From Octopus vulgaris (Eukaryota), in contig OX597824.1 in NCBI GenBank assembly GCA_951406725.2, forward strand, positions 12,462,001-12,526,000: a DNA stretch of 64,000 nt, given 5' to 3'. Positions 29,601 to 48,200 of the stretch are shown here, piece by piece (within the stretch, counting starts at the first letter, position 1; every line of letters begins with the position of its first letter). The translations under genes were made by a program, and so were the position numbers. The notes beneath the pieces are model-generated. The model saw nothing but the letters and a program-made list of their open reading frames with translations, was not told the origin of the DNA and did not search any database.

Positions 29601-32600
29601 TATTCATTAATTTCTGTAAGAAATTTTATATTTACTTTTGTTTTAAAGTGAAAGAGAGGAGAAAGTGAATGATGCATGAACGTGTATATAAAATGGACGT
29701 GTGTGGGTGAGAGAGAGAGAGTGTGTGTGTGTGTGTGCCACTTACACATGAGAACACACGTTCACACACTCACTCTCTCTCTCTCTCTCTCAAAAAAACA
29801 CTTGCACACGTACATTTAAAAGAGATGTACGCATATGTACGCCTTCTCTCACTCTCTCTCTCTCTCTCTCTCTCTTCCTGTTTCTTTCTCTCCCTCCCTC
29901 TCTCTCTCTCTCTTCCTGTTTCTTTCTGTCTGTCTGTCTGTCTCTCTCTTTCTCTCTCTCTCTTCCTGTTTCTTTCGTTCTCTCTCTCTCTCTTTCATAT
30001 AAATGTACATATTTCTTTCACTTTCTCCTCGCTTTCACTTTAAAACTAAAGTAAATAAAAAAATACTTTTACGTAAATTAACGAACTCCGAATGACAGTT
30101 CTGAGAGTCAAAGCGAAGCATCGTCATTCACTTGAAAATGATGAAAAAACGCATTAAAATATTGTCTGTTTAATGAAAGCTAAAATATAAACACTTATTG
30201 TACAAACAACTTACATTTTTGAAACAGCATTCAGTTAAAAATATTTCTAAATTATTAAAACTTTCTTAGAGAGCGCGAAAACTATGTGTGTGGATATGTC
30301 ACAGATAGCGGGCGTCTGTTTATGTTGGTTGACACGTCATGACATTCATGATATGTGTGTGTATTCTGTATGTGTGTATGTGTTGACGTCATGGAAGCCA
30401 TGATTTTATTTCGTCAAGAGATAACAAGCAAAAATTGTGTTTGTTTTCATTAATAAATAAATGTCCAAATATCACAAAATTTTGTACAGCACTGCCGAAC
30501 GTAAGTATAAAAACAAATATGCAAAAGAAACTAAGATAAAATCTACTATTTCTGAAATTGATACTACTGTTTATGGTGTTAATTTGGATTTTGAAATCAG
30601 TAAGTTGGTCAAATGTGGGCGTCCACAAAATTAGGCAGTCATATAAGTAGCGTTTCTAGATTTCTAGTAAATATTTATGGAAATCCAAGCCATATTTTAA
30701 TTTACATTGTTCATATATCTGGAACTCCATGTATACCATGACTAGATTTGCATTGGGGCGACTTTTGCCCCCATAGCTGTCCCAGATATTTGTTCATAAA
30801 TATTGTCATTAAACTCGAAAACGTTATTTTTATGGATGAATTTTAATTTTCACTTCTGTCTGGGATTTCATGATGGAATTTTTCTAGCCAGAAACTTATT
30901 CCCTCCAGTCCATATTGGTGCGGGATCGTGGTATAGAGTTTTAGTATATCAGATGATACAATAATGGTAACTTTGTTAACGGTTGTAGGGAGGTGATGTC
31001 AATAAAGAGACAAGGTTCCATCTTTGGGATGTAGTTAAAATAGACAAATTCACATTTGGAACTTGAGAAAAGTGTTGCATATTTTTACAGTTCCACTCAC
31101 AGATTGCACTTGTAATGTACGAATTAGCTGGTCGATTTCTCTCTCTGAAAATCCCAGTTTATCCACATTCTCCTTTAACAAAACTTAGTGCTCCAATTAT
31201 TATAAGTATGAATATGAATTCATTGTCTGGATACAGAAGCTGGAAATTTCGAAGCAGTTGTCCATAGATATTCTCTTTTACTTCGATTTTCAAAGAGATA
31301 TATATGTGCGCACGTACGTACGTATGTATGTATGTATGTATGTATGTATGTATGTATGTATGTATGTATGTATGTATGTATGTATGTATGTATGTATGTA
31401 TGTATGTATGTATGTATGTATGCATGCATGCATGTATGTATGTATGTATGTATGTATGTATGTATGTATGTATGCATGCAGGTATGTTTGTTTGTATGCA
31501 TGTATTATGAATTAAGTCTTTTGTGAATGCTTATCTATTTCAGATCACCAATCAGACCAGACCTGTTACAATGGAAGACAAACCACATATGATATACGTT
31601 GCAGCAACTCTTTTTGAGGTTCACAGAATTGGGACAACTGGTAAGAAGGCCGTCATGCAAATTCATAATACAACGATATCTCCTGTAATTCATATCGATC
31701 TTGAATCAGTACGCCAATGATATTCGAGTCAAAACTTTTACATCCCTGTGTTAATGGCAAAATTTCCTTGTGAATTACATTGTTTTTATTGTTAGTAAGC
31801 ACTTTTGTAATATAATCTCAAACTTTGTTGGTTATACAGTCCCTGAATGTCAACTCATTCTGACATGATCAATTCTCTTTCAGTTCTAATCTGTATTGTT
31901 ACATTACAACATTTCGTCAATCCAGTGTTACATAAGCTCAGATCTCTAACGTTGCAACACAGACTAATTTAATACCCAATTTTACAGCAACAGTGTTACG
32001 GAACGAAATTTCTATGTTTCAATACAACTCCACATTAACTAATGCTTATAAAGGTGTCACAGAATAATTACATCATCAAAGTTATGATATCCATAGTAAC
32101 ATATTTAATTTAGATTATCGTTAATTTGGGCTCTGTAAATATTTACAAAGATTCTTTTTTCTAGCTTCTGTAACTGCTCCACACACCGCTGAAGTTCAAA
32201 CAACTCTTCAAGGTTATGATATTCCAAAAGGTACTCTCGTTTCATTCTTATTATTGGAAGCTCATTCTGATCCGAATCATTGGGATAAACCAGAGGAATT
32301 CCGTCCTGAAAGATGGATTGATGAAAATAATGAGTTAAAGAAAAATGAGGCCTTTTTACCTTTCGGTTTGGGTAAGTATTGTAAATAGATTTTAATGATT
32401 TAGTATATCTATAATCAAACGGTTCCCAGACGTGACCAACACAACATTTGCCTCGATCTAGATCTAGACTACCTAATGATTGTTTTAAAACTGTATGTTA
32501 AGGGGAGATTTAATTATTGAATTGTAGAATCACCAGAGTTGGTTTGACATTAGTAAAAATGAGACAGTATAAAACAGCAATCTACTTCAAATCTTATTTA

Positions 32601-45236: not shown

Positions 45237-48200
45237 CTACAAATAAAGCAGTAGTTATAAATTAAACAACACACACTCTGTATGCTAAATATGTATCATA
45301 TACAAGTGATAAAAATTAGATAAGTCGTCATTGATTTTAGTTAGGTGTGAATATGTTCTGGCTGTTATCTCCCACACCCTTTATATAGTCGAACAGACTT
45401 CCAGTCATAGATACACACGCCCTGACAATAGTCAGATGTTAAAAATGGATTTCCAGAAACTACAACCATCCTGAAGGTACCCCGTGTATTAAGGCACACG
45501 GGATTGCCTTCAAGATGACTGTTAATATAAAGGGAGGTAAATGTTTCCCATAGCGCGAAGTTATAAATTTGAAATTGAAATCGAGGAATCAAGTAATTTT
45601 ATTAAAAATATGTTATTAAATGAATAAGATAAACAAATCGAGGCTTGCTCACAGAAATAAGGATATATCTCGGGAGAAAAAATGACCAAATATTTGTTTA
45701 GAGAATAAATATTCTATGTAGCGTATTTAGTGGACCATTGATGCTTATTTTGTTGAAATGATGAATATCAATACGCACTTAAATAAGATTTGAAGTAGAT
45801 TGCTGTTTTATAGTGTCTCATTTTTACTAATGTCAAACCAACTCTGGTGATTCTACAATTCAATAATTAAATCTCCCCTTAACATACAGTTTTAAAACAA
45901 TCATTAGATAGTCTAGCTGTAGATCGAGGCAAATGTTGTGTTGGTCACGATTGGGAACCGTTTTATTATAGATATACTAAATCATTAGAATCTATTTACA
46001 ATACTTACCCGAACCGAAAGGTAAAAAAGCCTCATTTTTCTTTAACTCATTATTTTCATCAATCCATCTTTCAGGACGGAATTCCTCTGGTTTATCCCAA
46101 TAGTTCGGATCAGAATGAGCTTCCAATATTAAGAATGAAACGAGAGCATCTTTTGGAATATCATAACCTTGAAGAGTTGTTTGGACTTCAGCGGTGTGTG
46201 GAATAGTTACAGAAGCTACAAAAAAGAATCTTTGTAAATATTAACAGAGCCCAAATTAACGATAATCTAAATTAAATACGTTACTATGGATATCATAATA
46301 ACTTTGATGTAATTATTTTGTGACACCTTTATAAGGCATTAGTTAATGTGGAGTTGTATTGAAACATAGAAATTTCGTTCCGTAACACTGTTGCTGTAAA
46401 ATTGGGTATTAAATTAGTCTGTGTTGCAACGTTAGAGATCTGAGCTTATGTAACACTGGATTGACGAAATGTTGTAATGTAACAATACAGATTAGAACTG
46501 AAAGAGAATTGATCATGTCAGGAGGAGTTGACTTTCAGGGATGGTATAACCAACAAAGTTTGAGATTATATTACAAAAGTGCTTACTAACAATAAAAACA
46601 ATGTAAAGCACAAGGAAAGTATGCCATTAACACAGGGATATAAACGTTTTGGGGCGAATATCATTGGCGTACTGATTCAAGTTATACATGAATAACAGGA
46701 GATATCGTTGTATTATGAAAATTGCATGACGGCCTTCTTACCAATTGTCCCAAATCTGTGAACCTCAAAAAGGGTTGCTGCAACGTATGTCATATGTGGT
46801 TTGTCTTCCATTGTAACAGGTCTGGTCTGATTGGTGATCTGAAATAGATAAGCATTCACAAAAGACTTAATTCATAATACATACATACAAACAAACATAC
46901 ATACATACATACATACATACATACATACATACATACATACATACATACATACATACATATGTACGTGCGTACATACATACATACATACATACGTACGTAC
47001 GTGCGCACATATATATCTCTTTGAAAATCGAAGTAAAAGAGAATATCTATGGACAACTGCTTCGAAATTTCCAGCTTCTGTATCCAGACTATGAATTCAT
47101 ATTCATACTAATAATACTTGGAGCACTAAGTTTTGTTAAAGGAGAATGTGGATAAACAGGGATTTTCAGAGAGAGAAATCGACCAGCTAATTCGTACATT
47201 ACAAGTGGAATCTGTAAGTGGAACTGTAAAAATATGCAACACTTTTCTCAAGTTCCAAATATGAATTTGTCTATGTTAACTACATCCCAAAGATGGAAAC
47301 TTGTCTCTTTATTGACATAACCCCCCCCCCTACAACCGTTAACAAAGTTACCATTATTGTATCATGTGATATACGAAAACTCTATACCACGATCCCGCAC
47401 CAATATGGACTGGAGGGAATAAGTTTCTGGCTAGAAAAATTCTATCATGAAATCCCAGACAGAAGTGAAAATGCTTAATTAAAAGGATTAAAATTCATCC
47501 ATAAAAATAACGTTTTTGAGTTTAATGACAATATTTATGAACAAATATCTGGGACAGCTATGGGGGCAAAAGTTGCCCCAATGCAAATCTAGTTATTGTA
47601 TACATGGAGTTCCAGATATATGAACAATGTAAATTAAAATATGGCTTGGATTTCCATAAATATTTACTAGAAAACTAGAAACGCTACTTATATGACTGCC
47701 TAATTTTGTGGACGTCCACACTTGACCAAGTTACTGATTTCAAAATCCAAATTAACACCATAAACAGTAGTATCAATTTCAGAAATAGTAGATTTTATCT
47801 TAGTTTCTTTTGCATATTTGTTTTTATACTTACGTTCGGCAGTGCTGTACAATTTTTTGTCATGTTTGGACATTTATTTATTAATGAAAACAATTAAACA
47901 CAATTTTTGCTTGTTATCTCTTGACGAAATAAAATCATGGCTTCCATGACGTCAACACATACACACATACAGAATACACACACATATCATGAATGTCATG
48001 ACATGTCAACCAACATAAACAGACGCCCGCTATCTGTGACATATCCACACACAAGTCTTCGCGCTCTCTAAGAAAGTTTTAATAATTTAGAAATATTTTT
48101 AACTGAATGCTGTTTCAAAAATGTAAGTTGTTTGTACAATGAGTGTTTATATTTTAGCTTTCATTAAACAGACAATATTTTAATGTGTTTTTTAATCATT

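What the first reader, a model, noticed from the sequence alone, without database searches (positions are those of the whole stretch)
32372..46008. Mosaic arm identity suggests an old palindrome with patchy gene conversion
Spot checks: intron 7 and 35.4-36.3 kb vs 42.1-43.0 kb differ by ~1-2%. The 3' UTR (33481-33560 vs 44821-44900) has ~7 differences in 80 nt and the Helitron remnant ~9 in 97 nt. The innermost repeat differs by ~20%. A single duplication date should give roughly uniform neutral divergence. Inference: recurrent arm-to-arm conversion, with amino-acid-changing sites and the 3' UTR resisting homogenisation, as expected if selection keeps the paralogs distinct.
Basis: partly seen in the sequence, partly recalled or inferred. 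Interest (0 to 1): 0.7.

Follow-up and report, generated by a model that had tools for sequence, protein, structure and literature searches.

The report
Octopus P450 mirror duplication, lightly shuffled
An octopus cytochrome P450 gene (a class that typically breaks down foreign chemicals) sits in two mirror-image copies about 3% apart; the copies have likely swapped short pieces with each other and with nearby sister genes, but the duplication is probably only a few million years old rather than an ancient, repeatedly erased one.

Summary
The mosaic is real but smaller than described. The arms (18.9-37.9 kb against 60.3-41.5 kb) carry two open-frame CYP2-clan P450 genes and differ at 347 of 11,367 clean columns (3.05%). 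Intron 7 is average (2.85%), not low. One block, 33,329-35,388, reaches 6.5% (scan P=0.003); the rest is 2.7% and even at 500 nt or more. No long identical tract exists (longest 232 nt, P=0.2). The innermost pair is a genuine low-copy repeat at 13.5%. Octopus vulgaris has four close protein records, O. sinensis several, O. bimaculoides one found. Most informative amino-acid sites group by arm across species (8-17 against 2-3), yet segment trees conflict (P=0.0005), so some exchange among copies is likely. An old (14%) palindrome is disfavoured: synonymous sites differ at 6 of 240, and the arms are no closer to each other than to a third copy. Best reading: a duplication 1.3-1.9 times as old as the vulgaris-sinensis split, probably seeded by an older short inverted repeat, with patchy exchange afterwards. 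Protection of the 3' UTR is not supported. Amino-acid change runs at or above the intron rate with frames intact, which hints at diversifying selection. A known kind of system.

The parts
18906..37930 (+). Left arm of the inverted duplication (aligned in blocks, interrupted by arm-specific repeats and indels)
41465..60343 (-). Right arm (reverse complement of the left arm)
17255..33322 (+). Gene L, CYP2-clan P450, 8 exons (17255-17621, 21543-21768, 23780-23906, 25942-26098, 27299-27435, 31544-31640, 32165-32371, 33144-33322), 498 aa, open frame; identical over 400 of 400 residues to NCBI record CAI9729725.1 (P0001), which skips exons 4-5
45058..57333 (-). Gene R, exons 2-8 (57333-57108, 54227-54101, 52211-52055, 49700-49564, 46838-46742, 46215-46009, 45236-45058), open frame; identical over 375 of 375 residues to CAI9729726.1 (P0025, 498 aa), whose exon 1 is not in the window
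32372..33143 (+). Intron 7 of L (partner 46008-45237); 22 of 772 differences, average for the arm
33329..35388 (+). High-divergence block, 52 of 800 clean columns (6.5%): predicted 3' UTR, downstream flank, Helitron remnant and first 130 nt of the next block
33653..33810 (.). High-copy dispersed repeat inside the downstream flank (contig depth hundreds of times that of the gene)
34587..35259 (-). Helitron remnant, left copy; shares 34587-34748 with the right copy
43116..43640 (+). Helitron remnant, right copy; keeps PIF1 sequence that L lacks and lacks about 510 nt that L keeps
35400..36303 (+). Low-divergence intergenic block (partner 42.98-42.08 kb), 16 of 904
31685..31774 (+). Short divergence peak in intron 6, 14 of 90 columns; a second peak at 33509-33598 has 12 of 90
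38490..38764 (+). Left copy of the inner repeat: 3' piece of a high-copy repeat (38490-38580) plus low-copy sequence (38602-38764)
40137..40400 (-). Right copy of the inner repeat; low-copy part 40137-40300, 13.5% from the left copy
38765..40136 (.). Unduplicated spacer (about 1.4 kb, mostly a dispersed element and a CA microsatellite); 39945-40136 is covered by one long contig in each of 4 of 4 runs
40400..41073 (.). About 700 nt present only on the right side, separating the 14% inner pair from the 3% arms

Best explanation
This is an inverted duplication of a CYP2-clan P450 gene whose arms differ by about 3%; it likely arose a few million years ago by DNA folding back on an older short inverted repeat that still sits at its centre, and the copies have likely exchanged short pieces since, with each other and with neighbouring sister copies. 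Shown: the arms, two open frames, the mosaic (2.7% background, one 6.5% block, a 13.5% inner pair), both gene types in O. sinensis, one related gene found in O. bimaculoides, conflicting segment trees. Inferred: (a) age, 1.3-1.9 times the vulgaris-sinensis split by amino-acid distance, about 3-5 My if 2.5 My (PMC10700109) and a clock hold; (b) the inner repeat predates the arms and acted as the fold-back seed, the right arm being the likelier new copy because the switch from 14% to 3% lies at a GATA microsatellite behind 700 nt found only on the right; (c) exchange was short-tract, patchy, among at least four copies and is now slow, as many arm-specific insertions have accumulated; (d) the proteins are diverging under weak constraint or diversifying selection rather than being shielded islands in an otherwise erased old duplicate.
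For: Background even at 500 nt and above once one block is removed; longest identical run 232 nt, P=0.2. Synonymous 6 of 240 against 32 of 885 non-synonymous. Both arm types occur in O. sinensis: sites grouping by arm 8-17, by species 2-3, in 6 of 6 quartets; paralog/ortholog distance ratio 1.32-1.95, all bootstrap intervals above 1 and below 2.8. The two O. bimaculoides records are the same sequence over exons 3-8 (0 differences), so one gene of this lineage was found there. L-R 29 of 375, R-third copy 28, L-third copy 34. Segment conflict: ILD 14 against null mean 5.9, P=0.0005; 236 of 435 site pairs incompatible, neighbours more compatible, P=0.0002; exon 8 of L sides with the R lineage, exons 1 and 3 with O. 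sinensis P0021, exons 4-5 with P0020. The inner pair is low-copy: run X5 holds one R-type contig (1 difference in 307) and one L-type contig at like depth. Its size, identity and spacer (260 nt, 86%, 1.4-2.6 kb) fall inside the range of human fold-back junctions (82-95% identical inverted repeats of about 300 bp; spacers 766-70,466 bp; PMC3907307 passages), and yeast fold-back tolerates up to 25% divergence (PMC10164571 abstract). No further older relic was found in 10 of 10 unaligned collinear gaps apart from one 87-88% repeat-family match with unrelated flanks.
Against: The origin of the inner repeat's unique 163 nt is itself unexplained; it may be a relic of an earlier duplication of this same region. 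Two 90-nt patches reach 13-16%, the inner pair's level. Three other runs lie 2.6-2.8% from the window at the single-copy centre (11 of 386, 9 of 316, 10 of 386), as far as the arms lie from each other, which would imply more homogenisation than I assume if those runs stand at species depth; their species is not given and the intervals are wide (1.2-5.3%). The segment conflict leans on O. sinensis models, several on 36-47 kb scaffolds that may be alleles or assembly chimeras; with O. vulgaris records alone the signal is weak (P=0.044 with three copies plus outgroup, P=0.35 with four copies over the last 200 residues). Fine-scale clumping could be clustered mutation (29 adjacent differences against 10 expected); no orthologous control alignment was available. 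The left inner copy was seen in only 1 of 4 runs.
Confidence: 0.5

Rival explanations
1. One reading: the palindrome is as old as its inner repeat (about 15% corrected); arm-to-arm conversion kept resetting nearly all of it, the 700-nt indel insulated the inner 260 nt, and selection kept amino-acid differences from being overwritten.
For: Inner pair is real, low-copy, collinear and 13.5% apart; two further 13-16% patches; a two-state model with near-identical runs of about 75 nt and 5% patches of about 100 nt fits better than one rate (log-likelihood gain 22 raw, 11.7 after merging adjacent differences, against at most 0.6 in 12 shuffles); pN is at or above the intron rate; large indels are known to stop conversion (PMC3924837 passage).
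Against: Synonymous sites, interleaved with an amino-acid difference every 35 nt or so, show 2.5%, not 13.5% (P=3e-9); no clear rise of intron divergence near amino-acid differences (P=0.08); arms no closer to each other than to a third copy; amino-acid ratio only 1.3-1.9; no long identical tract; the high block is not limited to the UTR.
Confidence: 0.2
2. One young duplication with essentially no exchange: the patchiness is clustered mutation, local rate variation and ancestral polymorphism, and the conflicting trees come from chimeric or allelic gene models plus homoplasy.
For: Most informative sites group by arm; background even at 500 nt and above; excess of adjacent differences; heterozygosity of 1.22% reported for O. 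vulgaris (PMC10700109 passage) allows percent-level variation between segments; three O. sinensis models differ by 0-1 residue per exon over exons 1 and 3-5 where they overlap and may be alleles.
Against: The 6.5% block survives merging of neighbours (P=0.007); conflict is exon-sized and clustered, not scattered; a weak signal remains among O. vulgaris copies alone (P=0.044).
Confidence: 0.18
3. One arm is a chimera: an unequal crossover or long conversion with a third copy (the 727/728 type) supplied the 6.5% block or the 3' end, so the mosaic records a few discrete events and not patchy conversion between the arms.
For: Four consecutive close records in O. vulgaris; L changes partner between exons 3, 4-5 and 8; other runs hold contigs of intermediate distance (5-7 differences from L per 113-130 nt) across 33,379-33,643.
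Against: DNA of the third and fourth copies could not be read; arms stay collinear across the block.
Confidence: 0.1
4. Assembly artefact: two haplotypes of one locus joined head to tail.
For: High heterozygosity and large arm-specific indels.
Against: Both types occur in O. sinensis; both occur at equal depth at 32,107-32,226 in runs X17 and X18; both inner copies and the spacer stand in X5.
Confidence: 0.02

Closest known systems
Primate CYP2D6/CYP2D7/CYP2D8 cluster (PMC4419802; 12 passages seen)
   Same: CYP2-family paralogs in one cluster; segments switch tree; paralogs differ more at substrate-recognition sites.
   Different: Here two copies are inverted, younger, in a mollusc, with pN at or above pS; the CYP2D study had DNA of all copies from several species, here only proteins.
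Fold-back inverted duplications with an unduplicated spacer (PMC3907307; 12 passages; yeast test PMC10164571, abstract only)
   Same: Spacer of a few kb bordered by an imperfect inverted repeat of about 300 bp, with much more alike arms outside it.
   Different: Those are new, often harmful megabase events with terminal deletion; this one is a fixed interstitial duplication of about 20 kb or more per arm, and its seed includes unique sequence, not only a SINE or LINE.
Gene-converting palindromes of mammalian X and Y (10.1101/800185, PMC8600007; search listing and start of abstract only)
   Same: Arms over 10 kb around a spacer, each with a gene copy.
   Different: Those are over 99% identical through continuing conversion; here 97%, no long identical tract, and most sites group by arm across species.
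Divergence peaks under conversion: red/green opsins, Drosophila block Pre28 (PMC3924837, 5 passages; PMC2588116, 12 passages)
   Same: Duplication older than a species split, with sites grouping by copy and a few by species.
   Different: No clear peak of linked neutral divergence round the amino-acid differences here; by-copy sites dominate everywhere instead of forming islands.

Membership tests
CYP2-clan cytochrome P450 | P450 domain with heme-binding cysteine motif, I-helix AGxDT and ExxR | tested here: met
   Pfam p450 E=7.5e-118; motifs visible in both translations (motif names recalled)
CYP2-clan cytochrome P450 | Closest solved relatives are CYP2 enzymes | tested here: met
   Best PDB matches CYP2B, E=6e-97; 38 of 39 sequences listed are CYP2
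CYP2-clan cytochrome P450 | Both copies expressed and catalytically active | not tested
   No RNA run was sought or laid
Gene-converting palindrome (X/Y type) | Long inverted arms (over 10 kb) round a spacer | tested here: met
   About 19 kb per arm, 11.4 kb of clean alignment
Gene-converting palindrome (X/Y type) | Arm identity above 99% | tested here: not met
   96.9%
Gene-converting palindrome (X/Y type) | Arms group by species rather than by arm | tested here: not met
   2-3 by-species against 8-17 by-arm amino-acid sites in 6 quartets; proteins only
Gene-converting palindrome (X/Y type) | Long identical tracts from recent conversion | tested here: not met
   Longest run 232 nt, P=0.2
Gene-converting palindrome (X/Y type) | Polymorphisms shared between arms in a population | not testable with these tools
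   Contigs merge or drop variants; the raw-read run laid nothing
Fold-back inverted duplication seeded by an inverted repeat | Unduplicated spacer at the centre | tested here: met
   No partner for 38,765-40,136; one long contig per run over 39,945-40,136
Fold-back inverted duplication seeded by an inverted repeat | Older inverted homology at the spacer edge, younger arms outside | tested here: met
   13.5% inside, 2.7% in the next block outward
Fold-back inverted duplication seeded by an inverted repeat | Ancestral locus has the repeat but a single arm | not testable with these tools
   No genome of this window or of relatives is held
Divergence peak maintained by selection against conversion | Linked neutral divergence raised next to selected sites | tested here: inconclusive
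   59 of 1,765 within 200 nt against 151 of 5,941 beyond, P=0.08; synonymous sites not raised
Divergence peak maintained by selection against conversion | Amino-acid differences in functionally important sites | tested here: inconclusive
   10 of 32 catalytic-domain differences fall in substrate-recognition sites covering 17%, P=0.03, with limits recalled from memory and the test chosen afterwards

The most novel reading that the evidence does not exclude
A roughly 15%-old autosomal palindrome in an octopus was almost wholly rewritten by very short conversion tracts that removed synonymous differences but spared substrate-site amino-acid differences between two working P450s, leaving its true age visible only in a 260-nt repeat cut off by an indel; a natural record of selection acting against conversion at single-codon resolution.
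Probability: 0.15. Interest if true: 0.6.

Novelty: new member of a known kind. Interest (0 to 1): 0.3.

Why it matters
Young P450 clusters that shuffle segments are well known (CYP2D, CYP21), so the class is not new. The case is useful as a mollusc example of a fast-diverging, recently expanded detoxification-type gene set in the common-octopus group, as a possible fixed germline product of fold-back on a diverged inverted repeat, and as a warning that the most diverged, innermost part of a palindrome can be its seed and not its date. Two searches listed no paper whose title or abstract start deals with octopus CYP2 copies or their conversion; most subscription journals are outside that library.

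Tried and rejected
My first guess that the inner 14% pair was two unrelated copies of a dispersed repeat was wrong for its unique 163 nt (low depth, two contigs in X5); it holds only for the repeat piece beside it, which is as like other copies in the window (87-92%) as like its partner (87%). The idea that gene R is a 5'-truncated pseudogene was dropped: exon 1 is absent from the window but present in record P0025. Treating the two O. bimaculoides records as a paralog pair was dropped (identical over exons 3-8). Raw reads of run X21 laid nothing (0 of 12.9 million read), so no test. Contig variant tables cannot phase or polarise isolated differences: 40 of 126 rows were shown, and contigs can merge copies. 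Folding the right inner copy alone was uninformative (z=-1.8). Merging differences within 10 nt removes the heterogeneity but biases the test towards evenness, so it is not counted. The first HMM run timed out and was redone in bins. A search for numeric CYP2 substrate-site limits found none in the passages seen; supplements of those papers were not opened and may hold them. Two pieces of the retroelement-like stretch at 62.7-64 kb gave no Pfam hit.
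Full report
What is there. A self-comparison shows collinear inverted blocks from about 18.9-37.9 kb against 60.3-41.5 kb. Each arm carries a CYP2-clan P450 in tail-to-tail orientation. Gene L has 8 exons and 498 codons; gene R has exons 2-8 in the window, with the same splice sites and an open frame. L equals NCBI record CAI9729725.1 over 400 of 400 residues and R equals CAI9729726.1 over 375 of 375; both are named Octopus vulgaris, and the next two records (727, 728) are close copies too. R's exon 1 lies outside the window. No genome is held for this window, so DNA of other copies could not be read.

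Checking the numbers. After masking tandem repeats and dropping 5 columns beside each gap and block end, 347 of 11,367 columns differ (3.05%; exons 37 of 1,106, non-coding 310 of 10,261, P=0.52). The inner repeat is 36 of 260. So intron 7 is ordinary, the inner repeat is 14% and not 20%, and the other figures hold. Windows of 7/80 or 9/97 are expected somewhere by chance. Real structure exists all the same: overdispersion at 100-500 nt, a block at 33,329-35,388 with 52 of 800 (P=0.003; the outermost repeat block 18,189-18,520 was left out of this scan), two 90-nt peaks of 14 and 12 differences, and the inner pair. Without the high block the rest is even at 500 and 1,000 nt. The best low block (24,769-25,379, 4 of 600) is marginal (P=0.027 raw, 0.23 merged). 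The longest identical run is 232 nt (P=0.2). Adjacent differences are in excess (29 against 10), so part of the clumping is probably multi-base mutation.

Are the arms and the inner pair real? At 32,107-32,226 runs X17 and X18 each hold an L-type and an R-type path at equal depth; X2 showed only an R-like one. At the centre, X5 holds an R-type contig (1 difference in 307) and a second contig whose 13 listed variants are all L letters; X2, X17 and X18 show only an R-type contig, 2.6-2.8% from the window. The unique part of the inner repeat is therefore low-copy, against my first guess; the piece next to it (from 40,297) and 33,653-33,810 are high-copy repeats. Three of the 22 inner differences are R-side changes absent from other runs, so most predate those lineages' separation. 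Contig depth is not copy number and holes prove nothing, so I draw no more from it.

Age. Both gene types occur in O. sinensis. In 6 quartets (L, R, one of two L-like and one of three R-like models), 8-17 amino-acid sites group by arm and 2-3 by species; paralog over ortholog distance is 1.32-1.95. The two O. bimaculoides records found are one sequence over exons 3-8, about 25% away; a full-length search found no other species with closer copies. With the published splits of 2.5 and 34 My (PMC10700109, 12 passages seen) the duplication falls after the second and somewhat before the first, about 3-5 My if amino-acid change is clock-like (inference). The arms are no closer to each other than to copy 727 (29, 28 and 34 of 375), which does not fit a private arm-to-arm reset of an older pair. 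Synonymous sites (6 of 240) rule out retained 13.5% divergence in the exons (P=3e-9) unless tracts were shorter than the roughly 35 nt between amino-acid differences.

Exchange. For 7 close copies over residues 139-498 (left out: the 203-residue model 728, the truncated P0022 and two isoforms with another last exon) the best single tree needs 55 steps against a minimum of 33; exon-group partitions save 14 steps (null mean 5.9, P=0.0005), and neighbouring sites are more compatible than chance (P=0.0002). With five full-length copies ILD P=0.0005 but the neighbour test gives 0.06. L sides with P0021 in exons 1 and 3, with P0020 in exons 4-5 and with the R lineage in exon 8; in exon 2 four O. sinensis models share two residues that no O. 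vulgaris copy has. Against this: the O. sinensis models partly lie on small scaffolds and may be alleles or chimeras, and O. vulgaris copies alone give P=0.044 and P=0.35. Exchange is likely but its partners and direction cannot be assigned, and nothing ties it to the two arms alone.

Selection. pN is 32 of 885 (3.6%), pS 6 of 240 (2.5%; P=0.55), introns 2.7% (P=0.13). An assumed ordinary constraint (omega 0.3) would predict about 7 changes, and relaxation of one copy alone is also too few (P=2e-4). Frames are kept (0 exon indels against 3.4 expected, P=0.03; frameshifting only, P=0.09), and 10 of 32 catalytic-domain differences lie in substrate-recognition sites (P=0.03; limits recalled, mapped through the alignment; exploratory). 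L has 9 private residues, R has 2. This hints at diversifying selection, or at weak constraint on both copies. It does not show protection from conversion: intron divergence within 200 nt of an amino-acid difference is 3.3% against 2.5% (P=0.08). The UTR claim fails on position: AATAAA lies about 340 nt after the stop in both arms, while the high block continues to 35,388 through a dead Helitron; no RNA was examined.

Mechanism. Outward from the spacer the two sides match at 86% for 260 nt, then the right side has 700 nt of its own, then both share a GATA microsatellite and the 97% arms. That is the layout expected if a broken end folded back on a pre-existing imperfect inverted repeat and copied the other side: human inverted duplications have unduplicated spacers of 766-70,466 bp, some bordered by 82-95% identical repeats of about 300 bp (PMC3907307, passages), and yeast fold-back tolerates up to 25% divergence (PMC10164571, abstract). 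The same layout could come from an old palindrome whose inner tip was cut off from conversion by the indel (PMC3924837, passages); the exon and third-copy evidence favours the first. One result favours more homogenisation than I assume: arm introns are no more diverged than the window is from three other runs at the centre, while proteins are 1.3-1.9 times the ortholog distance; if those runs stand at species depth, the 6.5% block may show the true duplication age. The step from layout to mechanism is inferred, not shown.

Verdict. Observation partly confirmed, interpretation partly supported. A young, fast-diverging P450 cluster with probable patchy exchange, like primate CYP2D (PMC4419802, passages); new member of a known kind; interest 0.3.

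Noticed in passing
window 26416-26829: A 414-nt self-palindrome (92% arm identity) in intron 4 of L only, beside TA repeats, with a related direct copy at 11254-11687 (88%); resembles the inverted repeat insertions noted elsewhere in this genome.
   Followed up: no
window 28113-28366: A hairpin element with near-perfect arms of about 75 nt between TA repeats, in L only (read).
   Followed up: no
window 27285-27298 and 49714-49701: The exon 5 acceptor has almost no pyrimidine tract in either gene; the NCBI model of L skips exons 4-5 (400 aa) although both are open and present.
   Followed up: partly
window 20357-20764 and 38842-39236: Two 93%-identical direct copies of a dispersed element, one in intron 1 of L and one in the spacer; neither has a partner in the right arm.
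   Followed up: no
window 61300-64000: Decayed retroelement-like reading frames on the minus strand between R's exon 2 and its missing exon 1; two pieces gave no Pfam hit, the retroelement label is from recall.
   Followed up: partly
window 21900-23200 and 24500-25250 (both arms): Decayed reverse-transcriptase-like and mariner-like remnants in introns 2 and 3, shared by both arms and so older than the duplication; labels from recall, not scanned.
   Followed up: no
proteins P0023, P0026 (O. sinensis): Two isoform models join the first exons of this gene type to a last exon of a more distant P450, suggesting a neighbouring older paralog's exon on the same strand or an annotation join.
   Followed up: no
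proteins P0005, P0006 (O. bimaculoides): Identical over exons 3-8 but 54 residues apart in exons 1-2: either two alternative 5' ends or a chimeric model.
   Followed up: partly
window 34587-35259 and 43116-43640: The two Helitron remnants carry complementary deletions, so together they preserve more of the element than either alone.
   Followed up: partly
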